Shown here piece by piece: positions 16,301 to 63,960 of a stretch of 64,000 bases of DNA (its first letter is position 1; every line of letters starts with the position of its first letter). The DNA is from Octopus vulgaris (taxonomy: Eukaryota). The stretch covers positions 14,570,001-14,634,000 of the forward strand of contig OX597818.1 of NCBI GenBank assembly GCA_951406725.2, read 5' to 3'. The notes under the pieces were generated by a model, which saw nothing but the letters and a program-made list of their open reading frames with translations, did not search any database and was not told where the DNA came from. A program made the position numbers and the translations under genes.

Positions 16301-16389
16301 CACGTACTGAAGACGTTAAGGTAATTTATTCAAATTAATTTTTAAAAATTGATTTATTTATTTTGCCAGTACAGAAACCGGTCTACGTG
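16301..16389 (+). ncRNA. Type I hammerhead ribozyme motif (intact core)
   Basis: cacgta-CTGAAGA-[60 nt stem II]-GAAAC-CG-GTC-tacgtg. Perfect 6-bp stem I, palindromic minimal stem III. Confidence 0.85.
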
Positions 16390-16588
16390 AGTCCTTATAC
16401 TTAAATGTACGTTGATAGATTTTATTAACCTGATCTGCTTTCTGTTGACTTCTGTATTTATCATCAGTCTAATTTTGGCGATTTAACTAAGAGCTTTGAC
16501 TGTCATTTCCAGCACACAGACATACTTAGTATGTCCTTTGATTAATTTTAATATTATTCCTTCAGATATATCAATATATATATATATA

Positions 16589-18219
16589 CAGTTGCGGCCA
16601 AAATGTTCAGAACGGCATTGTTTTCGTCAGAAAAGTAGATATAAGTTTTTATCAAAGTTGTTTTATATTCTATAATTTTCACAGACAGTAAATACAATAG
16701 TAATTGTTATTGTCTGAGATTTTGGTGTAATTTGAGAGGATAATACAAAAGTTGTGGATGATTTAGTGATTTACTGCAAAGCCCATGGCGGCCAAAATGA
16801 TCAGAATCGTTGAAAAAATAACAAAATAATCAAAAATGACAGAGAATACTGGAATTATTTAATATTTAGTGTGAAGCCCTTTAGCTTCAATCACACTTTG
16901 ACATCTTCGACTGCATGGGGAAATTAAATTTTCAATTTCTTGCTAGGTGATCTTATTCCATTCTTCCTGAAGGGCATTCCATAATTGCTCAGTTGTTTTA
17001 GGATTTTTGGCTTTCGAACGTTCTCCTAGAATATTCCACACATTTTCAATAGGATTGAGATCTGGGCTTTGAGCAGACCAATCCATAATAATAACCTTTT
17101 CAGCCTTGAGGAAGTTCATGACCACCTTAGCCTTGTAACATGGGGCATTGTCCTGCATGAATAATAACCTTTTGGTGGTCGCTTAGTTGAATTTCTCAGC
17201 ACAGGCAAGACATGATCTTTTACAAGTTGTTTATAAACTCCTGCATTTACCTTTCCATGTAATCGCACCAAAGGGCCCACACCATCTCCAGATATCATCC
17301 CCCAAACCATAACACTTCCTCTACCGAATTTAACATTAGTCTTAAGGCATTTAGGCGACAATTTTTCACCTACTTTTCAACGAACGTACCTTTTCCCATC
17401 TGAGCCAAATAACATAAACTTAGATTCATCACTGAAATGCACCGTTTGCCATTTTTCTTGAGACCACAACACATGTTTGGTTGCAAAGGTAAGACGACAC
17501 TTTTTTATTTTTGGAGCTGATCAGTGGCTTCACTGCTGGTGATCTTGCTTGTAGGTTATGTTCAACTAAACGATGAGACAAGTTTTTCGAGATAACGTTT
17601 TCTTTAGTACAATGTTCATTTCCCGAGAAACAGCAGCAGCAGTTTTAAATTTGTCCTTTTTAACCAATTTTACCATAGCATGATCTTCTCTCTTGGTCGT
17701 TTTTCTTGGCCTATCTGTAGCCTTTCTTGCTTCACACGAACCACAATCATCGAAGGCCTTAAGAATACCGTGAACAACACTTTTTGACTTGTTAACAATC
17801 TTTGCAATAGACCCAATACTTAAAATATGCTTCTTTCGGAGCTTAATAATCTGCTGACGAATTGATAACGGAGTAAGTGGCATTATATTATACACTGCAG
17901 ATATTCTTACTAATGTTTAGAAAACGAACCGTCACGTAAACAAATTCAAAACATTAGAGTTCGCCGGTTAAATATATTAAAACATGGAGTAAAAGCAACC
18001 GTTCTGATCATTTTGACCGCCATGCGTTTTACAGTAAATCACTAAATCATCCATAACTTTTGTATTATCCTCTCAAATTACACCAAAATCTCAGACAATA
18101 ACAATTAATATTGTATTTATTGTCTGTTAAAATTATAGAATATAAAACAACCTGGATAAAAGCATATACCTACTTTTCTGGCGAAAACAATGCCGTTCTG
18201 AACATTTTGGCCGCAACTG
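16589..18219 (-). mobile_element. Tc1 transposon (DD34E, IR/DR-type TIRs), full length, frameshifted
   Basis: TA-flanked cagttgcggcc...ggccgcaactg. ~225 bp TIRs with inner and outer direct repeats. FSDESKF, VMVWG, QDNAPC...SPDLNPIE with 34 residues between D and E. Confidence 0.95.
16860..17883 (-). pseudogene. Tc1 transposase pseudogene
   Basis: Split over ORFs 17566-17895, 17116-17361 and 16943-17158 by frameshifts and stops. Confidence 0.92.
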
Positions 18220-18224
18220 TATAT

Positions 18225-18392
18225 AAGCGCAGGAGTAGCTATGTGGTAAGAAGCTTGCTTCCCAAACACATGGTTCCGGATTCAGTCCCACTGCTTGGCA
18301 CCTTGGGCAAGTGTCTTCTACTAATGCCTCGGACCGACCAAAGCAGTGTGAGTTGATTTGGCAGACGGAAACTGAAAGAAACCCGTCGTATA
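18225..18392 (+). mobile_element. tRNA-derived CORE-like SINE (family B), 3' truncated
   Basis: A/B-box-like head plus ggcaccttgggcaagtgtcttc core. Same family as 48003-48408. Confidence 0.8.
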
Positions 18393-19723
18393 GATATGTA
18401 TACATATGTGTGTGTGTGTGTGTGTGTTTGTCTGTATGTATATACGTATTTCTATGTGTATACATATGTAATATGCATGGTTGTTTGAATGTATATATTC
18501 TTGTGTCAATGTGTGCATATATGTGCTTTTGTGCGTGTATTTTCGAGTAGATGTATGTATGTAGTCCTTTACAGATCAGTACTAGACTTCTTAATGCAAT
18601 TAACTTAGTATCAGAGGAATCAGTACGGTTCTGAACCTCAACCGTGGAAAATGCAACAAAAGCAGGCAATATGAATGTTCTTCACTTCACACCACAGTTT
18701 AAACTATGCTTGCTATACTAACAAAAAAGTTGCAAGGTTGGTTTGCCGTGCAAGAATATGAGGATGTTCCAAAAAGTTCCTGGTTTCAAGGGTGTCGGGA
18801 AAGGCCTGGTTGGAGACCCAACCTTCCGAGTTCTTTTGCAGGGCTTTTATTGAAATTTAAGATTTATGTCATGTTTCAGGAACATACTTAAAATTCTATC
18901 AATTTATGTGATATGAGATTTTAAAAAATTAAAATCATAATTTAAGATCAGAATATTTTATCATTAATTTTTCATATTCACAGATTAAGATTATAACGAT
19001 GTGTGCTTATACTATGCATGCTTATACTCACCAGCAGAACCCAAAAGGTTCCATTTAACAGCTGCATAATTTATAAGCTTCTTTTATAATAAATACCGTT
19101 GTGTAAATATATATTACGTGTCAGGCAAAAAGAAACAGCTCCAAGCCTGAGGTTAGTTTTGTACAGAATACCTAATATTACGGAGCATCAGAATGAAAAA
19201 ACTGGCGAAATTTTCGTCAATCTGGTTTTGTGCGAAACATAAATGTACTGTATCATTTCTTAAAGTTTATCACAACCTGTAAATATCTCAATTTAATGAA
19301 GAATATAGCTTTCCATATTTTAATTAAATTTTATTTTCATTTTTAAACATTCAAGATAAGCATATCGGCTATCATTAGTGAGGACAAGGGTGGCATTCTT
19401 GTAAGGTTTACAAAGCGCTGGTGTAGTGCATTGGAGACACTTCAACATTTTCTTCAAACGTTCCCTATCCATTCGGGATTTTGTCTCAGCAATTCAACGA
19501 ACCTGGTGAAATAAATAAATAGTAGTAAATAGTTCATCATCATTTCGCGAGCCTTTACGTGGTCGTTCGATCTTCCGGAAATTGTAGACAAATTTCCGTC
19601 AAATAGTACCCAACAATTTTAGAAAAGGATAGGTTGGATATTAGAGTTCTGAGTTTACTGTATACAGCATGATGACGGTTGGAAAGAATCTGATCATAAG
19701 ACTCTCGTTGATGGATGAGAGAA

Positions 19724-20009: not shown

Positions 20010-20187
20010 TATATATATATTGAGAGAGTGAGAGGGGGGAAATAGAAATAGAGAAAAGGAGACAGAATGGTAGAGAGAGAAAGAGAGAGACAGCTATATG
20101 TATGTATATACGCATGATATGAGTGTGTGCCTGTGTGTATATATATATATACACACTCATATATACTCATATATATATATATATATA

Positions 20188-23173: not shown

Positions 23174-23208
<35 letters not shown>

Positions 23209-23309
23209 ATCCAAACAAGAAAACACAAAAAACAAAGAAACACAACAACGCGAGGACGTAGAACAAATAAAGTATTATTGGACGCTCAGGAAAGAAGGGA
23301 AGAAGGAGG

Positions 23310-23344
23310 GTTTAACGTTTCGAGCGGAGCTCTTCGTCGGAAAC
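23310..23344 (-). ncRNA. Minimal hammerhead variant in a Penelope pLTR-like repeat (23203-23403)
   Basis: gttt-CCGACGA-agagc tcc gctc-GAAAC-GTT-aaac. U4C core variant, palindromic AACGTT stem III. Confidence 0.6.
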
Positions 23345-23488
23345 ATAGGAGAAGGAAAGATCCCGAGAAGGGAAGACAGAGGAAAAAAATCGCCAGCGGT
23401 ACTCAAATAAAGAAGCGCTGTGCTAGACACAAAAAGGGATAAATTCATGAAAGGAATGAAAATCAAAAACGTTTACTATCTCAGTTAA

Positions 23489-23579
23489 TCCTATACCGAC
23501 GGTTTCATCTGTATTAGCAAAAAAATCTGATTTAGCAAAGAAACAGAATTTATCTGTAAGGCCAGAATCATCAGTAGGA
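23489..23579 (-). ncRNA. Type I hammerhead ribozyme motif (intact core, GUA site)
   Basis: tccta-CTGATGA-ttctg...cagat-GAAACC-GTC-GGTA-tagga. Confidence 0.82.
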
Positions 23580-23727
23580 AGCCTTTGTAATCCTAGATGT
23601 ACAGACCGTTAGAAGCACATGTAAATCGATCTGTATGCCCTAACTTTTCAGACCAGTGCGCAGGGTATACAGATCGTTAGATTTGCATGTGCTTCTAACG
23701 GTCTGTACATCTAGGATTACAAAGGCT

Positions 23728-23819
23728 TCCTACTGATTATTCTGGCCTAAGCAGATAAATTCTGTTTCTTTGCTAAATCAGATTTTTTTGCTAAAACAGA
23801 TGAAACTGTCAGTATAGGA
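23728..23819 (+). ncRNA. Hammerhead copy with mutated core (CTGATTA)
   Basis: tccta-CTGATTA-...-GAAACTGTCAGTA-tagga. Confidence 0.65.
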
Positions 23820-24021
23820 TTAACTGAGATAGTAAACGTTTTTGATTTTCATTCCTTTCCTGAATTTATCCCTTTTTGTGTGTCTAGCACAGCGCTTCTT
23901 TATTTGGATGCCTTTTAATGTATTTCTATATGAATAATATATAGTCTAATGACTAATTCGTCTTTTATGCTGGGTCACTGGTAATAATAATTTATTTTTT
24001 ATTACCCTATTTACTATGTTC

Positions 24022-24082: not shown

Positions 24083-24219
24083 TATATATATATGTCTATA
24101 TATATACACATGTATATATACACATGTATATATACGTATGTATACGTGTGTGTGTGTGTATGCATGTAATTGTTTAAATAAATGTGGTATTAGTTTAACA
24201 CTTAAAGAAAATGAAAATG

Positions 24220-24255
24220 TCTTTACGCTTCGAATGCTAGTCCTTCATCAGAAGA
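24220..24255 (-). ncRNA. Degenerate minimal hammerhead
   Basis: tctt-CTGATGA-aggactagcattc-GAAGC-GTA-aaga (GAAA changed to GAAG). Confidence 0.55.
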
Positions 24256-25329
24256 AACACTGTGAAGAAAAGTAATGGGAAAAAGTAAACGAGAAGTCAT
24301 TAGGGAAAGAAGAAACGGGAGTTAGGGGTTAGGTTAGAAAGCAGTTCTATGGGGATGTTACGATTGAAATACAGGGAGAGGTGCACATATAGGAATGGAT
24401 CCGTGTATTGAGATGGACGGAGGGAAAGTGTTGTGGTTCTGAATGTGCTGTGTATGTACAGATGCGTGCAGATGTAGGTGTGTAGTGGCGTAGAACGGCG
24501 AAGGTGTGAGCAGTTGGTATGTTGGTGTAATCGTATTAAGTGAGGAAATAGTGAGACAGTGTGAAGATGGCAGATGAAAAGGAAGGTAAGAGGAATGTGG
24601 AGAATGTGGTAGATGTGTGTGAGATTTTTTTTATAGAAAAGAAAGAGACGAAAAGAGAAAAAAATGGAGAAAGAGAAAATGATAATTATTGAAAAAAGAT
24701 ATTTTTGCGTTTTAGTGAGATATAAGAAAAAAAAACATTAGTAGTACAAGGAGGGGATCAGCAAGAAGGTGGAAGAGGTGTGTATATGGGTCGGTTTATG
24801 GAAGTGTAAAGCTTAAAAGCAGAAAAGAAAAACAAAGTGCATGAAAAATGATGATGATGACGACGACTTGGAAAATCGGGAATAAGAGTAGGACAAGATG
24901 GAGAATAAGTAGGACAAAAATGGGGAATAAGTGCAGTGACAAGAGAGTAAACCAACAGAAAAAAGAAATTAAAAGATAAAATAAGAGAAAATCGAAAGAA
25001 CCATCTCTACATATATAAAATTGACTGTTTGTACGGTTGTTTGTTTGTCCGTTTGTCTTCTATGTATTTGAAAACAAGTAGACCAATTATGCTCAAGCTT
25101 GGTATGGCAGTTCCTTAGACAAAGAAATAGTTTTTGCACAAATTTGAACCATGATGTCGGGTGTCTGATTTTAGCTCACATGAACAAAATTCAAAAAATT
25201 ACCGAAAAACCTGAATTCCTTCGTAAATTTAATGATTATATGCAAAAGGGTTTATGGTAAATTTCCTTAAACTTAGAGATATGGGACAAATGTGACCGAA
25301 TGATTTGTTGCTCTCTTTAACTATTACAC

Positions 25330-28719: not shown

Positions 28720-30700
28720 CAAAGATTGGTCCAGGACATGTCTAACTTAATAGCACCACCTGATAGGATTATTCGAATCCTGTTTAAGTCAAGTTTTGTT
28801 TAAGTCAAGTTTTGTTTAAGTCAAGTTTTGTTCAAGTAGTGAGTTCTTGTTGGGTGAGTTGTATCCAATTATGGGTGGCTTATCTGGTATTCTTTGAAGG
28901 AATCTATCCAGACTCCGTTTAAAGTTGATGGGATCCTTTTCCTCTTTGATCTCCCTCGGGACAATGTTAAATAGGGCAGGGCCTGTTGTGGAAAAGAAAT
29001 TATGTTGCAGTGTACATGTATGTTGTGATCTTGAATTGGGCAGGAGACGTATGGCCCGTGGTCCCAGTCTTGGATTAACCTTGAAGCTAATGTTATTGTC
29101 CTTTGGGCAAAGTTGGCGGTATATTCTCCACATCGTACAAATGATGTACCGCTCACGGCGACGCTCGAGGGAGTAAAGTTTCAAGGCTTTAAGGCGATCC
29201 CAATAATCGAGAGCAGCCATGCCTTCAATTCGTTTAGTGAGTGCCCTCTGGAGTGACTCAATCCTGGAGATGTTTTGTCTTGTATGGGGAGACCACAGTG
29301 GGAAGCAGTATTCAAGGTGTGGCCGTACAAAGGAGGAGATAAGTGGTATGATGACACCTTGTTCTCTGGACCGGAAAGTTCTTAAGATCCAGGAACTCAT
29401 CCTACGAGCTATATCGACATTCTTTTTGATGTGTGCACTCCAACTGAGATCGTCATAAACAATTACACCCAGGTCTCTGATATTGTTAGAGGCTGTGAGC
29501 GGTTCCCCTGAAGGAAGAGAGTATGGCTGTTTTAGTGAGGAATTTCTTCCAAAATGCATCAGCTCAAATTTTCCCTCATTCAGTTGCATTTTGTTTCTGT
29601 CTGCCCATTGACTCACAGCATATAGATCAGACTGGAGTTGAGTTCGGTCTGCTTCTTCATTGACGATTTGTGGAGCTTAGTGTCATCAGCAAATATTTTC
29701 ACTTTGCAGTAATGTACGACACTGGAAAGGTCGTTTATGTAAATTATGAAGAGTAGCGGACCCAAAACAGTCCCCTGGGGAACACCGCTGGTGACTTTTG
29801 CTGGGCTTGAGTGGACTCCATCAACTACAACATGTTGTGTTCTATTCGCCAGGAAATACTTAATCCAGTGTAGAACTTTTCCACGGATTCCAACATTTGC
29901 CAATTTTGAGAGTAGGATATTATGGTCTACCCTGTCGAACGCTTTACTGAAGTCAAGATATATTACGTCAGAGTTCGAACCTGTTCCCAAGGCTTTGAGT
30001 ACATATTCAATGTGGTGTAAGAGCTGTGTTAGACAGTCCCTGCCACAGCGAAAGCCATGCTGATTTGCATTTAGGAGTTTGTGGGTCTCCAGGAAGTCAG
30101 CTATCCTTGATCTTAACACTCTTTCAAACACTTTAATGATGTGGGAAGTGAGTGAGATTGGGCGATAGTTGACTGCGAGGGATCTGTTTCCCTGTTTGAA
30201 AACCGGGATGACCGACTGGGATAGAAACTGCAAGTTGGTGTCTACATTCCTTCAGGAGACTAGCGGGGAATCTATCAGGGCCTACAGCAGAGTAGTATTT
30301 GACCTCATTTATTGCTGCTACGATGTCAGTGGCAGTGAAGGTTATGTCTGAGATTTTATGTTGGGAGTCAACTTCGTTCGTTTCTCTTACGTCAATATCA
30401 GTGGGAACACTAAAGACAGAGCAGTATTGTTTTTGCAGTATTTCTGCCATTTCTTTAGCATCGTGTTGGGGAATGCCGTTATCATCAATCAATGGCCCAA
30501 TGGGTGAGACAGTGGTTCTATGCTTTTTTGCATAAGAATAGAACACTTTTGGGTTCTGTTTGATGTTTTTGATTACCCACTGTTCCTCCACAGCTCTTTG
30601 ATTTTCAATAGAGGTTTTCATGTTGGTCTGCAGATGAAGTTTTTCCAGCTCTAGTCTTTTCATTGTTGTTGGATGTGGATGTTGTGTGTGGGAATATTTT
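28720..30700 (-). mobile_element. CR1/L2-type LINE, 5'-truncated, RT split by frameshifts
   Basis: NYRPISLTSH, NQHGFR, YLDFSKAFDRVDH, SGVPQGTVLGPLLF, FADDTK, LYSLERRRERY (ORFs 30133-30663, 29613-30233, 28816-29616). Confidence 0.95.
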
Positions 30701-31374
30701 AATTCTGATAGAAAACCATATGGCTGGATCTAGAGCTATGATGACGCTTCACTTTCCATATCTTTAGCATGTGGTGATCCACGATATTTAACATTTTGAA
30801 TTTATTCATAACACCCATTTTTGCAGATATGCTTGGGGGTGCGGCCAGTTCCCGGGACTCCAGATACATATTCATCACTAGCTTCAAAGTTTTTTTTTTC
30901 TTTTGCGAAACAAAGAAAATTTCTATAAAGTAATGTGTATTTGCCAATAGAGTAGAATTTGTTTTTTCACTTATTTATTCTTTAGAAAGGTTTCTCTTCA
31001 GGACTTCAGACAGCTGAAATTTTCTATGGATATTCTGTGTGCGAATATAATCTGAATAGAAGCAAAAACGAAAATAGTTTTTAAAAGATATTGAAGACCA
31101 TAAGAACTGATAGCAGCTATGCAAATTCATTTCGTTTAATCCCACCAAAGACATTACTAAGCCGGGAAGTTTATCCATACCTCTATTATTACTACGTCTG
31201 GGGCAGATAAGCTGACCGTTTTGCTAATCATAAGTTTTTAAAATGAGTTCAAGAATTAAAGATTAAGAATTTCGTTACCATAAAATTACTTTTCTTCAGA
31301 ATTAAGTGTCACTTTTATAAGATCCTGGAGGCAAAGAAGCGCCACAAATGATTCATAATAAAAATAATAATAAT

Positions 31375-38120: not shown

Positions 38121-40760
38121 TGGGTTCGAAAAGTCTGCTGCTGAAACAAACTCTCTAGAAAATTATCTATTAGCTAACCAGAACCAAGATAGCCTTAACC
38201 CTAGGCCTGGCCTGTAGTGATGCCACCAAAAGCATCCCCTAAAACAAAACGCATAAAATGGACTACAGAGGATTATAGAGATGTGTTGAAATCTTTCTAT
38301 ACAGCCCAACTAAATCCAAACAATAACCTCATAGTACAAACTTACATTTCATGGAGAAACTTAGTAGGCAATGAAGTACACAGATATATAGATGCAAATG
38401 AAATAAGTAATGTATGTAGAGGCATCATTAAGAACAAAAAGGTTAACTGACGCTGAAATTAGCAAAATTTGGACACAAATATCTCATGGTAGACCAAATG
38501 AAAACAGCAACAATGCAGCGTGGAATATGTAACAGATGTACAGAAACCAGTGTACGAGCAGTACATCTCAAAGAGGAAGCTGAAGAAAAAATAACAAAGA
38601 ACAGATATGCTTGATTGTTTTACTTGCTTGGTAGCAGTAGTTTCAGATTCTTCACCTCACTCAGAGTTAACGCCAAGTTCCCGTGCGAATTTACAACAGA
38701 TATGCAGAAAAAGAGGAGAATGTAGGCCTACCTCAAGAACACCGGTAAAGGGATGGCACGGAATTTGAGGTGAATACTAAAGGGAAGATCATAGAAGCAA
38801 AAGAAGATATTATCAGGGAACTCAGCAACACTGAGTCTACTGACATTATCAATAGAGAACCACTGGCAAAGTTCGCAAACGGCATGAAAATCAACAACAT
38901 TATCATGATATATAACGTTGCTCTTAAACGGATCTTAAGTAATAATGACCTAAAAACTTTAGATAACCTCATCTATTCCACTGCTAAATTTGTAACTGCT
39001 CAATTAGGTATCAGGACAACAGAGGAAAGGACCATTCATGTCAATAAACCTCCTAAGTCGAAAGTGGCAATGCAAAAAGAGGTCAAATTCTGCGGGCAGA
39101 TGTATCAGTTCTCGATGAACTTGCTAAAGGAGTAAATGTTAGGACGAAACGAGCTAGAAAAATGAAGAAAAATATAAAATCAAAGATCTTATAAACTTCC
39201 CTGCGACTAAGAAACAATTGAAACAACGAAAACAACTGAAAGCCCAACAACTTAGAAGATATGACAAATGAATCAAATTTTATTGAGAAAACGATATTCA
39301 AGACATATGCAAAGAAATGTTATAGGAAAATTGGCAGAAGTATGATTAGAAGTAAAAGAACCACCTAAGACTTAGGAAATAGAATAGTCCTGGAAGAAGA
39401 TACGGAGTAACAAAAATGATTATAATACTAACTGGTTAGAGTGAGACTGGAAGAAGTTAAAGAACAGAAATGGAAGGCAATAGGAATAGAAGAGCTAAGA
39501 TGTATACTTGGGAAGTCTCATAAATGAAAAACTCGAGGACTGGACCGAATTCTTAACCTCTGGCTAAATTGTATCGCAGAAGTACACCAAAATTTAGCTG
39601 CATCCCTAACTGATGCCGTCCAGAACTAAGAGAGATACCTGCCTGGCTAACTGAAGGAACAACATACCTTCTTTCAAAAACTGAAGACATAAAAAATCCA
39701 AAGAACTACCGACTAATACATGTCTCAACACCACCTGCAAGATCCTCACATTCATATTAACTGACAGAATATACGCTTTCCTTGAACAGAAAGCTATCGT
39801 TTCACAAGCTCAAAACGGCTGTAGAAAGAATTCTTATGACCGCAAAGATCAATTACTCATAAGTAAAATGACTCGAGAGAATTGCCGGAGCAAAAAGAAA
39901 AACATGCGTATGGCACGGATAAACTACAGGAAAGTTTTTGGAGTTTCCCACATAATCAAACACTTAAGGATTTGAAATATATAAGTACTCTCTTTTCATC
40001 TCCAAATTCTTACAAGATAGCATGGCCAAGTGGAATACACGTCTCCTTCTAAACCATAGTAATGGGATGAACCAAAATAACAACATCAACATTAACTGAG
40101 GCATCTTTCAAGGTGACTCCCTATCCCCATTGCTCTTTTGTATGGCACTGATCCCACTCTCAAACGAACTAAATAACACCAGGCATGGGTTCAAAGTTAC
40201 AATGACAAGCAGGCTGCAAAAATGAACGGGCAGAAATAAACTGAAGAGTGATGGAGCCAGAAGCCTCTGCATGGACAGTATATACTTCGAATTCGAAATT
40301 CTGACGTAGATCAATCAATAACCCATCAGTGGCTGAGAAGTTCAGGACTGAAAGCAGAGACTGAAGGTTTCCTATTGGCGGCACTAGACCAAAGCTTGCT
40401 CTCAATAAACTACCAGTCTAACGATCTTCAAAACGGTTCTGACCTTAAGTGCAGATTCTGTGACACATTTGACGAAACAATTGACCATCTCGTCTCGGTA
40501 TACCTTGTGCTGACGCCAAACGAATATAAAAATCGCCACGATAGGGCAGGACAGTATTTACATTGGAAAATATGTAAACACTACAAAATCAGCACTCCTG
40601 ATTACACGTATGAACATCCTGAGCCAGTCGTTGAAGGTAAAATTGTCACTATCTTCAGGGATTTTCCAGTTAACGCTGACTGAATGATCCAGGCTAATCG
40701 ACCAGACATAATTATTAAAGACAGGGAAGAAAAGACTTGTACACTAGTAGATGTAAGCTG
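38120..40760 (+). mobile_element. R4/Dong LINE C, internally deleted
   Basis: RIKWTTEDYRDVL, GIFQGDSLSPLLFCMAL, MHGQY, CRFCDTFDETIDHLVS..EYKNRHD, NRPDIIIKD. Confidence 0.88.
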
Positions 40761-41790: not shown

Positions 41791-42870
41791 CACGTTGATT
41801 GAATGACATCATCAGTTTTTAAGTTTCATTGAATTACGATGAAAAGAAATAACAAATGAGATAGCTAAGTTTAGCAAAGAAAGTCAAACCTTCAAGCATA
41901 ATTTTAGCAAACACAATGCAATATGTGAAAGAATTATTTTAGTGATTAACTGGCACCGAAATTTCGCTGGTATTTCAAAATTGTTGCACGAAAGTTACCA
42001 GCATGTATGCTCGTTTCAAACAGATATATTCTCAGCCACCTATTGTAGCCTTTAGACGGAATAAAAATATGAGATCTATTGACCTCTGTTTCTGACTCAA
42101 AGAAAAGGATCATTGGCGCATCTGCACGCTGTACCTTGAAAGACAGCCGCAAGAGAGGTAAACCTTGTTCAATATGCAACAAGAGTCAAATGAATTGCAC
42201 CAGGAATCATAACAGAAATGTTATGATTTATACAGAAGGTGGAATATGCAGAGATTCCCATTTGATGTACGCGGCAGAATGCACGAAACACAACTTGATT
42301 TATGTTGGTTTACAACAGAACAATTAAACAAAAGATTTAATGGGCACAGATTGGACGTCAGGCACATTAACAGTAGTTCGACAGCACTTGCTGAACACAT
42401 TATTTCAAATAGCTGCAATTTTGAAAAAGACTTGAAAGTGCTTATTCTCAGAAAATATTCTGAATCTATTTCCCTTTCAATACTCAAAATGCATGAGGAG
42501 AAATATGTTTACGTGTTATTAACATCACGCCCTAGAGGAATGAATAAAATGACAGGAGAATATCAAATTTACGCAAAACTGTTTGACTGAATATTCTTAT
42601 TTTTCTTTTCCTTTTTTCTTTGCTTTTTCCTGATTTTTTCTGTCTTTTTCTTTTCACCTGTTATAAAATTGAAACTTAAAAACTGATGATGCCATTCCAT
42701 CAACGTGTGGACTCTAGTTGCTCCCGTTCGTACTTTAGATCTGAATTTTATGATTTTGAACTTTAATCCCTTTTTACTTTGAACTCGACAAAGACAGGCT
42801 TGCTATCGAAATATCATTCAACGAATAAAATATCTATTGCAATTGCACCGCACTCTTCGTCGTGTCTATA
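41789..42870 (+). mobile_element. Penelope 3' fragment (GIY-YIG) with 40 bp inverted terminus
   Basis: MYAAECTKHNLIYVG/FTTEQLNKRFNGHR...ALAEH...RGMN. 41789-41828 is the reverse complement of 42670-42709. Confidence 0.85.
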
Positions 42871-42946: not shown

Positions 42947-44090
42947 CTTAATAACACAGTATAGGTAAAATGCACCGGGGTCTTTAGTCATGTGTCAAGT
43001 CACAAGGACCTGACAGATAATACTTTCCTTAAAATGTGCGTTGTGCCAAATAAGGCTGCTTTTTGCAAGACATCAATCATGCATGGGATTTGCAGTTGCC
43101 TTTAAAAGTTTTGAAGTTTAAATGGGATTGAACCCAACGCTCCGATCACCACTGGTATCACATTTATATTATCCTGTTGCATTCCATACAGTCTTGCCAT
43201 TACCACTTTTAATTCGGGGAATTTGGCGATTTTTTTTTCAACCTCTTTAATCACAACATTCATGTCATTTGGTATTGCTACATCAATGATCTGACAGTAT
43301 TTGTCTCTCTTATTCATTATGAAAATATCCGACCGACGGTGTTCGATTACACGATCCATCTGAAAATCATAGTCCCAGAGTATCGATACTTTTCCACCTT
43401 CTTGCAGAACTTTAATTGAACATGCTCATACCAATTCTCTGTTACTGGTATTTACGGCATAAGAGCCAATGAAGATACACACTTTATCGTGGCGGCACTT
43501 GTATTCTTTTTGTGCAAGGCTCTCACATCCACTTACCAAGTGGGTCACTTTTTCCACACTCTTTCCAAAGAATCTGCATTTCTGGGTGTTAGAAATTTTA
43601 TAGATGTTATACTTCATTGAATTGGTAGCGACAGCCTGGTCTGTGCAACAATGATCAGGCTCTCGATGGTACGCTTCAGATCACCTCGATCAAGCCATGC
43701 CTTCGATGCTGTATTATCCTTAACGTCTTGTATATTCTTTTCAAACTGTCCATGCATTATTATTTCAAGAAGGTTTTCTTTTCTCTTCTCTTCAGCTCTT
43801 TGGTTAAACTCTTCCTTGTCCATCATTTCATCTGCATTTACACCCATATCTTTTGCGGCATATTGCAGCAGGTCTACATCACTGTTTATCAAATACTCGA
43901 CAAGCGTTCCACTTTCACTCCTTATACAATGGTCTATACTAATTATTCCTCTGCTACCATTCTTTCTTTTTATATACAGTCTATTAGGCAGCTGTAGCGG
44001 CTGGACGTGTTCTTCACTGCTCTGACCATTCAAAAGCCGAAGACACAGAAACACTAATATGACCCACCAGGACAACTGAAAAATAAATCT
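42903..44090 (-). mobile_element. R4/Dong LINE E, 3' part, with (TAA)n tail
   Basis: RLYIKRKNGSRG, MHGQF, WLDRGDLK, THLVSGCESLAQKEYKCRHD, HRRSDI..IIDVAIP, VIPVVIGALG. Confidence 0.9.
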
Positions 44091-44773
44091 CAAAGACTGG
44101 AATATCTACAATATCAAAATAAGTTCAGATACTTACATATCTACAGTTTTCGAACACACAAACGCTCAGCTTTAAAAACTTTAATAACTACAACTTCTGT
44201 GAATACCTATCCTTTCCTTTTTTCCTTGAGTATTAGAAAATGTTAACATCCTTTTTATTCTAAGAACACTACACTGTGAAACTTTTACTCTCCTCTTCTT
44301 TGATTTTCTTTCTCCCTGAATATTAGAAAATGTATACATTCTTTTTATTGTACAAACACGAGTGTCTTCTCTAATTGGACACACAAACGAGCATCTCTAG
44401 AAAACTTTAATATCTACAATTTTGTGTGGAAGTATTATCTTTCTTTTCTCTTTGACTACCTGAATAAGTAAACATACCTTTTATTGCAACAACACAATTA
44501 AAAGCACGATAAAAAGATTTAATAAATAAATAAAATTATAGCGGTAAGCACCTGGCAATATATACAAATTACACAATTACATAAACTGTAAGCAACAGCA
44601 AAAAATATTTAAAAAAGGAAGAAAATACAAAAATATCAGAAATTTAAAATTTCAACAACAGGAGCATCAGTATATCTATATACACACGCTCGCACATGAT
44701 GTATAAAAAATGTAATATACTAATAAATATCTGTGAGTACCTCATTTCTTCTAATATATATATATATATACAC

Positions 44774-45056
44774 ACAAAATTTAAAGGACTGACCACTAAA
44801 AGTGGACGGTCAACATGCTAGATATAGACGTCAAAATCGCTATTTTCCACGAAGAATGTGTTCTCAAACAAATTTATTTGAGAACACATTCTTCGTGGAA
44901 AATAGCGATTTTGACGTCTATATCTAGCATGTTGACCGTTCACTTTTAGTGGTCAGTTTTTTAAATTTTGTATGTAAAAATATTTTAATCTTCGGATTTT
45001 TTTAATATACAAGGCCACTGGTTTTAATTGATTAATATCAATTTCTACCCTTATTC

Positions 45057-51680: not shown

Positions 51681-51849
51681 ATTTTTTCTATATATGCATA
51701 TGCTGATATATAACCTACGCTGGACTCCTCATTCGCATAATCACCGAACCTGGAGCTTAACTATAGACTGTCCATAGCATTACTTGACACCTTTGGGTCT
51801 TCTTGACACCATTACCTCTCATAACCTATATATATATATAATTTATCAA

Positions 51850-52470
51850 TTATAATAAAGGGTAAAATTAATTAATTAACTCGTAATTAATAATTCCACC
51901 AAGTAAAATTCGGCATGAAAAAGGACCATTTTTCGGTAAACTTAAACAATATTTTATAATTACGAGTATGACTATAATTAGGGTTCAGCAAAGATTTGCT
52001 TTACCACATACCGAAGTTTAGGAATAGCAGGCAAAGAACCTTAGCTATTTCTTCTACTATAAGAAGAGACTCCCGGACAAAGCAAAATATTAGAAATAAC
52101 CCACGCAGACAGAGAGGAAAAATAACGAAATTCCCTCGGTATTTGATTACCTGTGGACGCGTTTCGGAATTAGATCGGTATGAAGAATATAAAAATCATA
52201 CTTCACCCAAACATTTTCCTCTTCAGCACAGGATTCCCCGATATTAAATTTGAGAGCACTGGAAAAATTGAACATACCTATCCAATTCAAAACAGTATCA
52301 GACAGATCATATTCAACGTCCAGTACCGGCGAGTTTTGTCCGGGAGTCTCTTCTTATAGTAGAAGAAATAGCTAAGGTTCTTTGGCTGCTATTTCTAAAC
52401 TTCGATATGTGGTAAAGCAAATCTTTACTGAACCCTAATTATAATTATACTCGTAATTATAAAATATTGT
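51850..52470. mobile_element. ORF-less fold-back element (135 bp arms) with a hammerhead in the loop
   Basis: 51946-52081 is the reverse complement of 52335-52470. Flanked by (TA)n. Confidence 0.85.
52150..52232 (-). ncRNA. Type I hammerhead ribozyme motif (intact core)
   Basis: cctgtg-CTGAAGA-ggaa...ttcc-GAAAC-GC-GTC-cacagg. Confidence 0.9.
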
Positions 52471-52481
52471 ATATATATATA

Positions 52482-52849: not shown

Positions 52850-52916
<67 letters not shown>

Positions 52917-53277
52917 TAGTAATCGTAGCCACTTCAGCATGGCTGTCCGATTGGGCGGACTCTGCTGCGATTTTTTAACCCCAAGAAGACATCTCCACTA
53001 GCTGGTTAACGATGCAAAGCTGCATCCGATAAAATTGTGAGCAGGCGAACGAACACCTATCATCTCATAGCGACCGATCGGATGCACCTGTGCATTGTTA
53101 ACCAGTTAGAGGAGATTTCTCTTGCTTTTAAAAAAATCGAAGTAGAGTCTGCTCGAACGGACAGCCATGTTAAAGTGGCTACGAATATTACTTATTAGTA
53201 CAACTACTGCTTTAATCTCTTAGAGAGATTTTAGAACTAGCGACTGTGTGTTCGCTTGAAATATATATATTGCGTGC

Positions 53278-53502: not shown

Positions 53503-53536
<34 letters not shown>

Positions 53537-53576
53537 CGTGCAGAGCGAGCTGCTACCATTTCTAACAGAAAGGTGT

Positions 53577-53627
53577 CCAGTACTGAGGAGTGGCAGAAAT
53601 AGACCGAAACCAGGACTGGTCTGCTGG
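53577..53627 (+). ncRNA. Type I hammerhead ribozyme motif (intact core, weak stem II)
   Basis: ccagta-CTGAGGA-gtggcagaaatagacc-GAAACCAG-GA-CTGGTC-tgctgg. Confidence 0.75.
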
Positions 53628-54082
53628 TTCTGTCCCTAAGAGATGGTAGGGGTTAGCTCCCCTGTTCGCAATTTTATCGGATGCAGCTGTGTATCGTTAA
53701 CCAGCTAGTGGAGATGTCTCTTATGGTTAAAATATCGCAGATGAGTCTGCCCTGTTAAAGTAGCTACGAATATTACTTGCCAGTACAACTACTACGTTAA
53801 TCTCTTAGAAAGATTTTAAAACTTGCATTTTTGCTTGTTATATATATATATATATACAACATAAACTTGCAGTTTTGCTTGTTGTATATATATATATATA
53901 CATATATACATGCGTATAATAGGGATAACCACTAAGCGGACATCCAATATGCTAGAAGAAATAGTTAAATTCCATACCACTATTAGGGATAAAACTTCGA
54001 AGGGAAAGAAAAATAAAAACATTTACCATCTTATTACCCTTGATATTATTAACATATATATATATATACACACACATACACG

Positions 54083-56189: not shown

Positions 56190-57940
56190 GTCAAGCAAAT
56201 TGTATTGATAATACAATTTCGAACTGAAAATCAGTCAATGTTGAAGAACCCCGTTGTAAATAATATTCATTGTTTCAATTTTTATTGGTGTTGAAATGAA
56301 TAAATTTTTGCTGCTTCCATCTGGCGAGCAAGCAGTGGGAGTAGCATGTAGTAGAGAGGTCAAGTGCAACTACCTTGAGTGAGTAACCCTGAATTTTTTT
56401 AATTGAAATACCAAAACTTAGTTTGACTGGAAACTGCAGCGTCATAATTTCTAATGGAACATATGTAGGTACAAGAGGAATTTTTGAAATAAAGACATTT
56501 TCTCCTTTGTTATGATTGTTGCTTGTTGGACATGGGACTTCATGGAAGTAACAATTAAGTGAATTCCATTACACAGGTGAGGTGGTCAAGATTCCCAAAC
56601 AACATAATGGGAGCACCCAGTTTTAGTGTCATGTTATGCAGTGCCATCCTAATAGGTTCAAGTGTGTTCAGAAATTCAACAGTGTACTGAACAACCTGAT
56701 TTTGATCGACTGTTGTCATTTGATCGAAAAGTCATTTCTAATGTATCTATTAACTTTTGAAGAAGTTCATGATTGAGTTCATCAACCATTTCATTAGTTG
56801 GAGCTAGTATAGCTCTTTCACATAGTCAGTTTACATCAGTGTAATTGACATATAAATTATGAAGTACTTTATCCATAATATCCCTTAAAGAAAGTATCAT
56901 TTAATCGCATGTAATTTCATGTAGTTGAAGTCTTGATTTGAATGATAATATCCTATTATCAATCTTAAGAATCTCGTATGATCACCTTGTAGAAGTACTC
57001 TGATGTTGCCTGTAAAATGAAGTTCTTTTACATTTCTTCGAAGGTGCGATTTTTTGAAGCAGGCATTAACCTCATGAGCTTTTGATCCTTTGGGGATAAC
57101 TAACAATGTTTGACGAAAATCTCCTCCAACAAGAACTGATTTTTATCTTCTTGGAGGGTACGGTCAAGTAACTTTGGAGCTCCACAATGTGACAGTGAGC
57201 TCTTCCCAAGCAATGAGGCAAGTTTGTTAGAGAACTGTTGCCCTGGCACAGTTTTTGGAAATGTTGCACATTTTCGATTCTTTCCTTGCAAGGTTTAGAG
57301 GGAGCTTGAACATGGAAGGAACAATTCTCCCCCCATTGAGGAGAGTAACTACAATACCAGAGGAGGCAACACTGGAAGAAGGTTAAATTTTCTTTATTTC
57401 CATTTGGGATTGCAGGTAAAAGTGACAAAAAGAGCTGTTTTTTTTGTATGTCCTGACATATGTCATAGCATCTTGTGTTCGTGCAAATATCGAGGACAAC
57501 TTGTGAATAATAATGGGAGGATTATAAGTTGCCCCATGATTTTATATCACTATCTGTCCTCAGAGCATCTTGGAGAGGGACTTTGGTTTTATTGTTACGA
57601 ATGTAGAGGAGATACTGACTCTCAACTATAGCATACATATCAACCAGGTATAGCTGAAATAGATCAGGACACATGTGTAATTGATTTGATTGTTCTGGTC
57701 TTAACATCAGTTGATAAGAATAGAAGTCATTTGACGACACCTTTTTGTTTATAATTGGCTCTCCTGTTGCAGGTTCAATCTGTGGAATATTGAAATGATA
57801 CCCATCTTGTCCATTCCACAAAATAAAAGGATACTGGAGAGCATCATAAGAGGGATGAGTCTCTGAAACATGTTTAAGGTTGTTATCTCGAGCAAGAATG
57901 AGAATATCACGATTTTCATGGGGATCACCTACTATAAGGA
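56190..57940 (-). pseudogene. Helitron Rep/PIF1 helicase remnant
   Basis: DALQYPFILWNGQDGYH...FYSYQLMLR...FQLYLVDMYA, DFRQTLLVIPKG..EVNAC.K.S.L, RAILAPT, LKLGAPIMLL. Confidence 0.88.
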
Positions 57941-59908
57941 TGGTTAATCCATTAGATGTAAGCTCGTTAAAATGGCGTAAAATGCCCTTTATTATAGTTT
58001 ACTATAGACGTAGCGAACGGGAAACACACGCTCACAAACATAGAGACACTGATAGAATTGAAAACAGCAAAACGTGTACACACGGAGTTCAAGCGAAGCG
58101 TACTGTTGTCAGTATAGACGCAAAACACACTTTCTGTAACGTAGTTATGCTATAAAACTTTTTTTTGTGAATATTTCCAAAAGAAATATTCCAGCGTCGG
58201 AAAGTCACCAATTTAGTAAAAATTACTATGCGTCACCAATGTAACAAAGTACAGAAAGTCAGCATTTATGTGGAACATGTACTAAATGTTATTAAATGTT
58301 ATTAAATTCAGGATTAAACGTAACGGTGAAGTCAAGCCCGAAGAAAATTCAATTTTTCTTATAAAAATAATTTATTATTTTACAATTTTTAAACGAGCGC
58401 TGTACAAAGTGTATACGAAGGAATATGTTGTTGTTGAAAACATTAAGTAATTTAAAAGATTTGCTGAAGGATATATGTAGCAAAACATAAATTAATTTGA
58501 CATTACTATATATTCTAACTGTGTAAGGTTATAGGCTGTAGAATAAATACTGACTAATACTGACCAACGCAAAAATGTTGCGCGGCATTGAATACTAACA
58601 GTGTTAAAGCAGCGTAGTAGGAATACGACAAGGACTCTAGGACTGTTAAAACAGCATTATCTTCAAACTGGTTATAAGGACTGGAATAACATTTCTGTAA
58701 TTATATTGAAAGAGCCGCTAAGGCTTTCTACTTCGCCAAGTTTCCGAATTTGTTATAATAACCAGAATAACATTTTTTTTCAGATATATTTGCGAGTGTT
58801 TTGAGTGCTGTTAAATGAGCCAAATCTTCACGCTGGTTATAAAAACCAGACAAATATTCCAGCACATAAGTAGTGATAATCGTTAATCCTGTTTAAAACG
58901 CAACTCTCCATGAGGAAAAGGAAAACCCAAACAGTGATACTTCAAAGTGAATGCTGATGTTCGTTCAACATCCAGGCCGTAACTAAATTAAACTCTTTCA
59001 AAATCGATGCGTTTCACTGTTGGCGGTACGATTACATACATATAGTAAGACAGACACTCACAGACATACATTCAAGCAGACCTCAAGCCTATCGCTTTCT
59101 CTTTGTGTGTCTGTTTCTGTATTTAGATATGTGTGTGAGTGAGTGAGTGAGTGAGTGAGTGAGTGAGTGAGTGCGTGTATGTGTGTGTGAGTGTGTGTCA
59201 GTCGTCACACCTTCACATACACTCACACATATACTTCTTGATCATCGGCCTACCAAAGGTAACGATCGCACAAACACACACAAATTGACAGACACATACA
59301 CAGTCGGACAGAACATGTGACGTCGTCATCATCGTGGTATAAAATGTTATTTACGGTAGTTAACTTATAGAAAGATCATAATGTCAAACTTTTACAATGC
59401 AAATATTTAAACGAAAATAAAGTTTATTTGGTAGCCGAAAGATTACTGAATCTTTTGATACCCCATACGTCAAAATCGACAACTAAGTTTTCGAATGTAT
59501 AAGGAACATATGCACACACATATACACAAACTCTGCTTTATTTATATAGAAATACTAGTAATGCATCCCGGCGTTACCCGGAGGTTATGATCTACAAGCA
59601 CATTGTATTGTTTGCTCTTTTCTTATGGGAAGAATTGGCACAGCTGATATATAGTTAATGGAATAATGGAAGCTATTGTTTGTTTAATAGTGAAAGGCGA
59701 GGGTGAAATTTGCATGAAAGTGCATTCTGTTCTTAAGAAGGATCAGAGACTATGTAATGTTTCATCGTATACGAGGAGATTAATGCGATTTTGTCCAGAA
59801 ATTACGTTTTCGATATTTTAATTTTCCCCTTATCCCCACCGCAAATTTGTAACTTTTTTCGAATTTTTTGTCATCTACATAGAAAAGTACAGAGATTACG
59901 AATCTGGG

Positions 59909-59978: not shown

Positions 59979-60176
59979 ATGATAAAATAGGGTAATAATA
60001 AATTATTATTACCAGTGGCCTAGCACAAAAAACGAATTAGTGATTAGACTATATATAATTCATATAGAAATACAATAAGAGGCTTCCAAATAGGAAAGCG
60101 TTGTGCTAGAACACAAAAAAAAAGGATAAATTCCCGAAAGGAATGAAAATTAAAAACGTTTACCATCTCAACTATT

Positions 60177-60246
60177 TCCCAGACCGACGGTTTCTAACTA
60201 TTTCCAGCAAAAAAGTATTTGCTGAAGGCCAGTTTCTTCAGTGGGA
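60177..60246 (-). ncRNA. Type I hammerhead ribozyme motif (intact core, GUC site)
   Basis: tccca-CTGAAGA-aactg...tagtta-GAAACC-GTC-GGTC-tggga. Confidence 0.85.
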
Positions 60247-60379
60247 CAGCCTTTAGAATCCAGACATACATCCTCTCTGTGGCCGGGTAAAATCTGCGTC
60301 TGCGCAGTGGTTTGAAAAGTTAGGATTTACAAACCGTTAGGCCTACATGTGGATCTAGCGGTCTGGATTCTAAAGGCTG

Positions 60380-60449
60380 TCCCACTGAAGAAACTGGCCT
60401 CCAGCAAATACGTTTTTGTTGGAAATAGTTAGAAACCGTCAATCTGGGA
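60380..60449 (+). ncRNA. Hammerhead copy with broken stem III
   Basis: tccca-CTGAAGA-...-GAAACCGTCAATC-tggga. Confidence 0.6.
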
Positions 60450-60558
60450 AATAGTTGAGATGGTAAAAGTTTTTAATTTTCATTTCTTTCGTGAATTTAT
60501 CCTTTTTTGTGTGTTCTGGCGCAACGCTTTCCTATTTGGAAGCCTCTTATTGTATTTA

Positions 60559-60627
<69 letters not shown>

Positions 60628-61713: not shown

Positions 61714-61763
<50 letters not shown>

Positions 61764-61799
61764 TTATCTTTCATACACACGTATATAGCGTAGGTAAAG

Positions 61800-62490
61800 A
61801 ATACGCACACCACTCGTTTTCGGCGTAACCCTAACACTAACCTTAACACTACAAATTCATATACATACATACACTCCCACACATACACTGACAGACATAC
61901 ACACTAACATACAAGATGTGACGTTGTCATCGTCATCGTGGTATAAACTGTCCTATACTATATTTGACTATAGAAAGATTATCTCTATAAAATGTTATAT
62001 TGTTTTAATGGAAATGAAAAAATTAATTTAACGGTAAATGTTACAATAATTATTAGAGATAAATTTCTTTATATATATATTAAGCACATGTATTAAATGT
62101 TAATTTAAGGGTTAATATGTAACTGTAAATACCTCGCTACTTTGCAACTGCTGCGATAATTATTAACTGGTAATTTAACGGTAAATGATATTTTTATATA
62201 CCTTGGACTTAGTGTTATCACATTAGAATTAAAAGTGAAAGAACAAAAGTGAAAGAATATAATAGTCATTCACAACATTCTCTTTTGACACGTAATATCA
62301 AATCAGTCTAAAAGATTGCTCCAGGCCCGCATTAGGCAAGAAGTTGAGAAGATTTTTTGTCCCTTTACACTCTATGGACCCTAAGTAATGCATGTGTAAA
62401 ATTTGAATGAAATCGGTTTGGTAGTTCTCGAATTTTAGAGATTCACGCATAAGGCAAACAAACATACATTCTCAACTTTATATATATAGA
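61800..62490 (-). mobile_element. Non-autonomous Helitron-like fragment
   Basis: 62375-62490 resembles 3838-3960 (5' TC end). 61910-61980 resembles 59310-59378. Confidence 0.55.
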
Positions 62491-62504
62491 TATGCATGTA
62501 TATA

Positions 62505-63380
62505 CAAGGGGCGGTGAATACATTGTCACCTAAATTACGCAAAATGAAAATAACACTGTCATCTTATTTTAGCAGATATATTAACCAAAATTGCTTTAAA
62601 AATATCTTGAAATACTAAAGGATAAATTTATTCAATAAAATAGTCATTGACTTCAATTACGTCCTCCAGACGACTTCGGAATCTTCTGCAACTCTTCTGG
62701 ACGGTCACCTTGTTTAAGTTGGTGAATGCTGCCATAATCCTTGCCTTCAGTTAGCGTTTAGTGTTACAAGGAGTTTTATTGGTTTCTAGCTCAATTGCGC
62801 CACACACATAATTATAAATGAGGGTTGTAGTCTGGGGAGTTAGATGGCCAGATGTTAGGGGTGAGTGGGTGCAGAAATTGTCTGATAGCCATGAATGGTT
62901 TCTCCTGCTTGTGTGGCATAGTGCAGAGTCCTGTCGCCAGACAGAGTCTTCCAGCAGCCACCCGCTTGACCCAGGGCAGCACTGCCTCCTCCAGGTACTT
63001 GATGTAGTCCTTTGTGTTGAGTCTGAGGTCGTGTGGGAAGATGAATGGAGGTATAACATCGCCATCACTAGTGATCGCTCCAAACACGATGATGATGACT
63101 GAATGTTCGATTTTTATCACTCACTGTACCTGTTCTCAGATAGCACTGTCCTCAAATTGACACCCAAACATTGAAATGTTCATAATTGAGCTTCCAGCGC
63201 GAATACCCAACAGTACAGCATGTCATTTCCAAATTTATGGCCGAGTGAATTGCGTCATGATACTGTTTTTCTCAAAGACGATGCCCAACTGCCCATACTA
63301 TACTGTGTAGTCGACAAAATCAAAAACAAACCATGCGCATGCATGAAATTAAACATATAAAATGGTGACAACTAACCCTG
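62505..63380 (-). mobile_element. mariner-like (DD37D/maT-type) transposon, decayed
   Basis: VFGAITSDGDVIPPFIFPHDLRLNTKDYIKYLEEAVLPW, QDSALCHTS, WPSNSPDYNP. TA-flanked caaggg...ccctg ends. Confidence 0.85.
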
Positions 63381-63435
63381 TATATATGTGTTTGTGTGTG
63401 TGTGTGTGTATCTGTATAATTATATATACATATAT

Positions 63436-63960
63436 AAAAAATTAGTGTGCATTTTAACGCAAGTGAGGCGACCCTTGACAGGCAACCTTACATGCTAGTC
63501 AAAACGACCAAAACCACATTTAAGTGCAATTTCGAAGGGAATGAAAAATAAAAACTTTTACCTTGTTTTTTTTTCTTTTACAGCCATACCTAAATTTCGA
63601 ACTCTCATTAGCAAATAAAATAATTTGCTAAGCGAAGTTCTCATTAGTGGCTACGCCAAAACATTAACATATAATTTAGAGACAGAATAACACTATCTCA
63701 ACATTATATATTATAATTTATCAAATTCACCACGCAAGCGCGGTTTCAATCGGCAGCACAAGTAAAAGAAGGCCGAAATTAATTTCTGAAATTGCTAAAA
63801 TCATATTTATACAATATAGGATAGCGAAATTTTAGAAATTTCGCTACCAGTGCCCTAGCATGTATAAAAAGTCAATAGACAATATATTTTCCATATAAAA
63901 TTAGTGTACATTTAAACACAAGTGAGGCGACCCTTAACAGGCAACCTTACATACTAGAAG
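63436..63960 (-). mobile_element. ~459 nt monomer plus ~60 bp direct repeat with a degenerate hammerhead (63581-63653)
   Basis: attagtgt...gaggcgacccttracaggcaaccttacat at 63441 and 63900. tagcca-CTAATGA-gaactt...gagttc-GAAATTTAGGTA-tggctg. Confidence 0.75.

What the first reader, a model, noticed from the sequence alone, without database searches (positions are those of the whole stretch)
16301..63653. Dispersed family of ORF-less, (TA)n-embedded hammerhead-ribozyme elements (candidate cephalopod retrozymes)
Seen: type I hammerhead folds with intact cores at 16301(+), 23489(-), 52150(-), 53577(+) and 60177(-), and mutated or variant ones at 14449, 23310, 23728, 24220, 60380 and 63581. Stem I sequences differ between copies but always pair (cacgta/tacgtg, tccta/tagga, cctgtg/cacagg, ccagta/tgctgg, tccca/tggga). 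The host elements are 300-600 bp, non-coding, flanked by (TA)n, and share motifs (agggtaa..accagtg.cctagca; gaa.ggaatgaaaa..aaaaac.tttac). Known: Penelope pLTRs and non-LTR retrozymes carry type I hammerheads with tiny palindromic stem III that cleave as dimers. Inference: this is a diverse family of self-cleaving, probably circular-RNA-forming non-autonomous retroelements mobilised by Penelope RT. The long 55-60 nt stem II is unusual compared with minimal Penelope hammerheads.
Basis: partly seen in the sequence, partly recalled or inferred. Interest (0 to 1): 0.9.

Follow-up and report, generated by a model that had tools for sequence, protein, structure and literature searches.

The report
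Octopus ribozyme mini-retroelements riding Penelope enzymes
These are several families of short non-coding repeats that each carry a predicted self-cutting RNA fold and are most likely copied around the genome by a Penelope-type retrotransposon enzyme, a kind of element already known from other animals.

Summary
The hammerheads are real as folds: 4 descriptor hits in the window against 0 in 100 shuffles, with compensatory changes in stem I. They are not one family. The five 'intact' sites and three variant ones belong to five non-coding families (A-E) with closed head-to-tail monomers of about 360-600 nt. 23310 is a separate ~215-nt SINE-like repeat, 14449 ends a coding Penelope-like element (PLE), and 24220 is unresolved. 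Family A insertions show PLE hallmarks: (TA)n targets, 5' truncation, inverted arms and two fixed 3' ends. The likely helper is a Hydra-clade PLE: the genome holds an 806-aa RT/GIY-YIG frame with Hydra motifs, and three loci fuse such units directly to PLE coding sequence. Long stem II (40-60 nt) also occurs in those coding elements. New evidence: in family A, 18 of 63 copies reaching the predicted cut site end within 15 nt 3' of it (p about 1e-5), which suggests cleaved RNA was reverse-transcribed. Family C did not reproduce this, and RT stalling at stem I is a rival. Cleavage, expression and circles are untested. Verdict: new variant of non-LTR retrozymes / non-autonomous PLEs.

The parts
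59979..60270 (-). Family A main arm (monomer 431 nt), reaching the distal 3' end; hammerhead core 60241-60235, 40-nt stem II, predicted cut after 60182
60269..60560 (+). Family A inverted arm, ending at the proximal 3' end; hammerhead at 60380 with stem III broken by two substitutions
23404..23663 (-). Family A relative (about 74-77% to A), inverted arm; core 23574, U.U at base of stem II, 17-nt duplication in stem II, predicted cut after 23494
23662..24011 (+). Main arm of the same insertion with the tail; core at 23733 mutated (G8 lost)
51841..52335 (-). Family C (monomer about 595-600 nt); fully canonical core at 52226, 54-nt stem II, palindromic stem III, predicted cut after 52156
52333..52473 (+). 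Family C short inverted arm ending at the proximal 3' end
15785..16569 (+). Family B partial tandem (inverted piece 15785-15885, end of previous monomer 15933-16195, monomer 16171-16569; period about 465-525); hammerhead 16301-16389, cut after 16383
53515..53831 (+). Family D (monomer about 361-370 nt); canonical-size type I hammerhead 53577-53627, 16-nt stem II, 4-bp stem III, cut after 53621
52914..53270 (.). Family D inverted pair of 3' fragments without hammerhead
63435..63959 (-). Family E partial tandem (monomer about 458-464 nt), homologous to A around the hammerhead and 3' motifs; core at 63647 mutated here (G5 lost), intact in most relatives
23200..23405 (-). Family G: ~215-nt young SINE-like repeat with minimal hammerhead (CCGACGA core at 23340), abutting the 23404 insertion
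14165..14606 (+). 3' end of a coding PLE (endonuclease-like C-terminus RLNKETFFIEKYKPRLN; reading it as GIY-YIG is recalled, not from a call) followed by a decayed minimal hammerhead at 14449
24205..24270 (-). Minimal hammerhead, core 24251, GAAG instead of GAAA; host element unresolved, no relative among held loci
53976..54035 (-). 3' fragment carrying the motif shared by A and E
14765..14863 (+).

Best explanation
Families A-E are non-autonomous Penelope-like elements (non-LTR retrozymes): closed, non-coding units of 360-600 nt with one type I hammerhead each. (1, inferred) A tandem or partial-tandem copy is transcribed. (2, inferred, with genomic support in family A) The hammerhead cuts at its NUH site, giving linear RNA that may be ligated into a circle as shown for other animal retrozymes. 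(3, supported by anatomy) The RT/GIY-YIG protein of a coding PLE, most likely of the Hydra clade, nicks (TA)n DNA and primes at two internal sites about 80-110 nt apart downstream of the hammerhead, which gives inverted arms of which only one has the tail. (4, seen in the copies) cDNA synthesis usually stops early; about 30% of family A copies that reach the cut site stop just 3' of it (linear cleaved template), and the rest read through and often cross the head-to-tail junction (circular or uncut multimeric template).
For: Closed monomers: period 431 nt in A; periods in B, C, D, E; 29 of 79 A loci cross the junction; longest ATG ORF 39-72 aa. Two 3' ends: 99 of 119 A segments (51 and 48); (TA)4 next to 81 of those 99 against 6% of random window positions; 36 of 79 loci have both orientations, 26 of these 36 with one arm at each end. 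Same anatomy is the PLE hallmark in PMC8557442 (passages) and is explained by two internal RT starts in PMC11167929 (parts 1-2 of 4). Helper: 806-aa frame at L244 with DKT, CxCx5C, CxxC..E and N..CxH and no CX2-5CxxC, the Hydra definition (section 11); 15751 first-look candidates for its endonuclease family; its 3' UTR has a type I hammerhead with 50-nt stem II and two 3' ends 86 nt apart. Direct fusions without (TA)n: family X at its normal 3' end to a 5'-truncated Hydra frame (L244), family A to Hydra endonuclease sequence at 5 nt of microhomology (L024), family B to Hydra-like endonuclease sequence (L095). Published Hydra hammerheads have the same U.U at stem II base and 4-bp palindromic stem III with one central base as the 23489/60177 type (supplement S2). 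Stem I: 3 of 5 pairs change on both sides in 12 hand-picked copies. 5' ends: 18 in +1..+15 (0.022 per nt at risk) against 0.007 elsewhere and 0.0016 inside the ribozyme; p = 1e-5, edge test p = 1e-3.
Against: No coding element with the same 3' UTR as A-E was found among 80 PLE loci, so the partner is inferred, not matched family to family. Family C gave no ends at +1..+15; 4 of 8 copies at risk end at +16..+21, near the base of the extended stem I. Some family A copies are two arms of one insertion, so not independent. PMC11167929 found hammerhead cutting dispensable for insertion in vitro and no RNA reads ending at the cut site. In the Xenopus preprint only 1 of 9 dimers cleaved. Long tandem arrays, typical of described retrozymes, were not seen (longest A segment about 1.7 monomers).
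Confidence: 0.78

Rival explanations
1. Same non-autonomous PLEs, but the hammerheads are largely silent: templates are uncut multimeric transcripts, there are no circles, and the excess of 5' ends reflects RT stalling at the 3' strand of stem I.
For: The family A excess covers +1..+13, the span of the extended stem I 3' strand; family C ends cluster at +16..+21; cutting was dispensable in vitro for an Anolis PLE.
Against: The excess stops sharply at +1, and the longer stem II hairpin has the lowest stop rate of all (4 ends in 2472 nt at risk). Core and stems are kept with compensatory changes across families.
Confidence: 0.33
2. All sites are 5'-truncated 3' UTRs (pLTRs) of coding Penelope-like elements.
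For: True for 14449 and possibly 24220; coding Hydra elements here carry similar long-stem hammerheads.
Against: Copies long enough continue into their own 3' end, not into a frame. tblastn with the Hydra protein hit 4 distinct places among 143 overlapping A loci; only L024 is contiguous, and there the other copies of that Hydra family continue differently.
Confidence: 0.08
3. MITE or foldback DNA transposons inserting at TA, with chance hammerhead-like folds.
For: Large inverted repeats flanked by (TA)n at 23404, 51841 and 59979.
Against: The centre of inversion varies from copy to copy, 43 of 79 loci have one orientation only, 5' ends are ragged, and units run in direct tandem. Descriptor hits are 0 in 100 shuffles.
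Confidence: 0.02

Closest known systems
Metazoan non-LTR retrozymes (Cervera and de la Pena 2020, PMC7229834; Li, Clavereau and Pollet, bioRxiv 10.64898/2026.07.22.740005)
   Same: Non-coding, low-GC (0.32-0.42) units of a few hundred nt with one type I hammerhead, head-to-tail junctions, PLE link proposed
   Different: Here mostly dispersed, 5'-truncated, inverted or partial-tandem copies in (TA)n rather than arrays; stem II 40-60 nt in four of five families; circles not shown
Hydra-clade PLEs, including Hydra-1_Obim of Octopus bimaculoides (Craig et al. 2021, PMC8557442)
   Same: (TA)n targets, 3' hammerhead with U.U at stem II base and palindromic 4-bp stem III, inverted 5' copies
   Different: Units encode no protein; the Hydra hammerheads listed in supplement S2 have short stem II, those here are extended
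Poseidon_Ac PLE mechanism (Frangieh et al. 2024, PMC11167929)
   Same: Two internal RT start sites giving a tail on one end, AT-rich targets
   Different: Tail here about 80-110 nt, against the 30-40 bp cited there; here 5' ends accumulate at the cut site in one family, whereas that study saw no RNA ends there
Minimal PLE hammerheads (Cervera and de la Pena 2014, PMC4209133)
   Same: Sites 23310, 24220 and 14449 fit this minimal type
   Different: Families A-E have fuller stems; 23310 has U4C

Membership tests
Type I hammerhead ribozyme | CUGANGA / GAAA / NUH core with stems I-III | tested here: met
   stem II base non-canonical at three of five sites
Type I hammerhead ribozyme | Covariation in stems | tested here: met
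   stem I, 3 of 5 pairs, 12 hand-picked copies; further swaps in C and B; related copies are not independent
Type I hammerhead ribozyme | Match to an Rfam hammerhead model | tested here: not met
   (150 of 333 rows shown)
Type I hammerhead ribozyme | Self-cleavage | not testable with these tools
   indirect only: 5'-end excess in A, not in C
Non-LTR retrozyme | Non-coding unit of 150-1000 nt with head-to-tail repetition | tested here: met
Non-LTR retrozyme | Tandems with two or more complete hammerheads | tested here: inconclusive
   two hammerheads in a few loci (L023, L267, L281, L284, L287); no long arrays in the samples
Non-LTR retrozyme | Accumulates as circular RNA | not testable with these tools
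   no RNA holder listed, contigs only
PLE-mobilised element | 5' truncation, inverted 5' copy, tail on one end, microsatellite target | tested here: met
   family A; family C
PLE-mobilised element | 3' end shared with a coding partner | tested here: inconclusive
   no match among 80 PLE loci out of 15751 candidates; three direct fusions instead
Hydra clade (helper L244) | DKT, CxCx5C linker, CxxC and CxH around E and N, no CX2-5CxxC, 3' hammerhead, (TA)n | tested here: met
   RWK absent because the frame is 5'-truncated; no tree built
Coding PLE end | Unit continues 5' into RT/EN frame | tested here: not met
   A-E; met only at 14449

The most novel reading that the evidence does not exclude
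Octopus carries a radiation of Hydra-PLE-dependent retrozymes with an extended stem II hammerhead (in A and E possibly closed by a loop II to 5'-flank pseudoknot), and their insertions record both template forms of the cycle: ribozyme-cleaved linear RNA (5' ends at the cut site) and circular RNA (read-through across cut site and junction). This would be in vivo evidence that PLE reverse transcriptase copies hammerhead-processed RNA.
Probability: 0.4. Interest if true: 0.75.

Novelty: new variant of a known kind. Interest (0 to 1): 0.52.

Why it matters
Two points are open in the papers read: whether PLE enzymes really mobilise animal retrozymes (proposed in PMC7229834 and the 2026 preprint) and what the hammerhead does in the PLE cycle (called unclear in PMC8557442, dispensable in vitro in PMC11167929). 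These families give a countable genomic read-out (5' ends relative to the cut site), direct fusions with a helper, and a long uninterrupted helper frame, so both points become testable. They also appear to be a sizeable part of cephalopod repeat DNA that Rfam does not flag. The class itself is known.

Tried and rejected
Rfam scans: only microsatellite-driven miRNA hits. The repeat finder was swamped by (TA)n. First reading of L024 as an ancestral UTR join was rejected: other copies of that coding family continue differently. First label 'Neptune' for the helper was rejected after motif check: Hydra. The 5'-end peak was anchored on a pattern next to the cut site and could be a selection effect, so it was redone with a distant anchor; L158, an internal deletion, was dropped before counting. 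Replication in family C (25 of 28 exact matches) was inconclusive. RNA: no RNA holder listed; four runs laid were contigs of guessed kind, and a joint going back about 590 nt is what genomic tandems also give, so no inference on expression or circles. Pfam gave no family for the helper protein and a sub-threshold GIY-YIG for its relative; the Atlas gave GIY-YIG/RT-bearing animal clusters. One search used mis-set columns and is superseded, where the pseudoknot columns are out of register and give no test. Sites 14449 and 24220 had no relatives among held loci and were not searched genome-wide. Literature: searches listed no paper describing these families; Repbase and Dfam could not be searched; PMC5785218 and PMC5850863 are not held; the supplement of PMC7229834 could not be read and the preprint's supplements were not seen, so prior listing cannot be excluded. 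Two look-ups in earlier findings returned nothing.
Full report
Setting. The window is G000:C5:14570001-14634000 in a 2.8-Gb assembly of 227 contigs. Size, about 30 large contigs and the likeness of its PLE protein to Hydra-1_Obim (by eye) point to an octopus; that is inference.

Observation. The five named sites have the full core and a paired stem I. A relaxed type I descriptor finds 4 sites in the window and none in 100 shuffles; a strict one finds 1. Folding with the core held open costs 0.4-3.5 kcal/mol at 52226, 16307, 60241 and an E relative, 6.5 at 23574 and about 9-10 at family D. Rfam shows no hammerhead. On 12 hand-picked copies of families A and E, stem I is 96.7% paired with 3 of 5 pairs changed on both sides. 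Stem II measures 60, 61, 54, 16 and 40 nt. 23728 and 60380 are decayed inverted arms.

Families. Genome searches split the sites into A (60177, with 23489 as a relative), B (16301), C (52150), D (53577), E (63581) and G (23310), with 1698, 1525, 3306, 1011, 2295 and 1333 first-look candidates, which are not copy numbers. An exact 35-mer of A occurs 223 times, its reversed control 0 times. A and E share the hammerhead region and 3' motifs; B, C, D and G do not match them. Periods are 431 (A), about 465-525 (B), 595-600 (C), 361-370 (D) and 458-464 nt (E). G is a ~215-nt, 95-99% identical repeat with fixed ends and no tandem in 16 loci. 14449 lies behind an endonuclease-like C-terminus (the GIY-YIG reading is recalled). 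24220 is unresolved.

Not coding ends. Family A copies that pass the start of the unit run into its own 3' end; 29 of 79 loci cross this junction (83 loci from the first 100 of 223 places, 4 duplicates dropped). Seven of 20 C loci show the same junction. The longest ATG frames are 39-72 aa. PLE protein hits in the family loci are rare and mostly separated by (TA)n or distance.

PLE anatomy. 99 of 119 A segments end at one of two sites about 80-95 nt apart; 81 of the 99 abut (TA)4, against 6% background; 36 of 79 loci have both orientations and 26 of those have one arm at each site. C has two ends 105 nt apart. Craig et al. describe inverted truncated copies, one-sided tails and (TA)n bias as PLE features (PMC8557442, passages). 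Frangieh et al. trace the tail to two internal RT starts (PMC11167929, parts 1-2 of 4).

Helper. A GIY-YIG fragment beside one A copy led to a large coding family (15751 candidates). L244 holds an 806-aa frame with DKT, CxCx5C, CxxC..E and N..CxH, the Hydra definition (section 11); Hydra elements target (TA)n and one is described from Octopus bimaculoides (supplement S1). Its 3' UTR has a hammerhead with a 50-nt stem II and two 3' ends 86 nt apart, so the long stem is a local trait of coding elements too. The Hydra hammerheads in supplement S2 have short stem II but share the U.U base and palindromic stem III of family A. Three loci join a non-coding unit to coding sequence without (TA)n: X at its usual 3' end to the truncated L244 frame, A at five shared letters in L024, B inverted in L095. 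These are best read as template switches by one enzyme (inference). No coding element sharing a 3' end with A-E was found in 80 PLE loci.

Footprint of cleavage. 101 of 126 exact matches to a 31-mer about 80 nt downstream of the cut site were aligned, one internal deletion dropped. 5' ends fall at 0.0072 per nt at risk in +16..+76, 0.0221 in +1..+15 (18 of 63 copies), 0.0016 in -59..0 and 0.0072 further up; p = 1.0e-5 against the rest and 1.2e-3 against -14..0. The flanks there are (TA)n or inverted arms, not diverged ribozyme. Against: some rows are arms of one insertion; the zone equals the 3' strand of extended stem I; in family C (25 of 28 matches) 4 of 8 copies at risk end at +16..+21 and none at +1..+15; and the Anolis study found cutting dispensable. 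Read-through copies need a circular or uncut multimeric RNA; DNA cannot tell which.

Comparison. Non-LTR retrozymes are 170-400-nt circular RNAs from tandem repeats with PLEs as candidate helpers (PMC7229834, passages and part 4 of 6); the 2026 preprint derives them from PLE pLTRs in vertebrates (parts 1-3 of 5). PMC4209133 (parts 1-2 of 4) covers minimal PLE hammerheads; PMC8967140 and PMC7761336 were seen as passages. Eight searches listed no account of these octopus families, but repeat libraries, two key papers and some supplements were out of reach.

Verdict. Works like a non-LTR retrozyme and very likely is a non-autonomous PLE (0.78); Hydra as helper about 0.7; cleavage in vivo about 0.6; circles about 0.5. 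New variant of a known kind; interest 0.52.

Noticed in passing
L244:1492-1999, L249:203-467, L191; window 14765-14863: Further hammerhead family X (57-59-nt stem II), with two 3' ends about 108 nt apart, fused at L244 to a Hydra frame.
   Followed up: partly
Families A and E, e.g. window 60165-60258 (-), L283, L288, L169: A 4-5 nt complement between the 5' flank of stem I and the loop after the base of stem II (AAGGC/GCCUU in A; GGCG/CGCC, GGUG/CACC in E) could form a pseudoknot replacing the usual loop I-loop II contact.
   Followed up: partly
Held loci (about 1 Mb): 138 distinct descriptor hits in many more hammerhead families, stem II 10-71 nt, some with CCGA cores; the sample is enriched for repeats.
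   Followed up: no
window 23200-23405 (-): Family G: young ~215-nt SINE-like repeat with a U4C minimal hammerhead and fixed 5' start; 12 similar copies turned up in loci fetched for other queries.
   Followed up: partly
window 2457-3200 and 42213-42587 (+): Decayed frames resembling other PLE RT/GIY-YIG regions (recalled resemblance; Pfam gave no support).
   Followed up: partly
window 28816-30729 (-), 5176-5616 (+), 40252-40683 (+), 43614-44105 (-): Fragments resembling LINE reverse transcriptases (read, not tested).
   Followed up: no
window 57072-57998 (-): Frames resembling a Helitron Rep/helicase (read, not tested).
   Followed up: no
window 44776-44969; 7911-9829; 16583-18225: A 194-nt near-perfect palindrome and two elements with long inverted termini (338 and 230 nt), probably DNA transposons.
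   Followed up: no
L158, L314: Family A copies with internal deletions between short direct repeats that remove or shorten the hammerhead.
   Followed up: no
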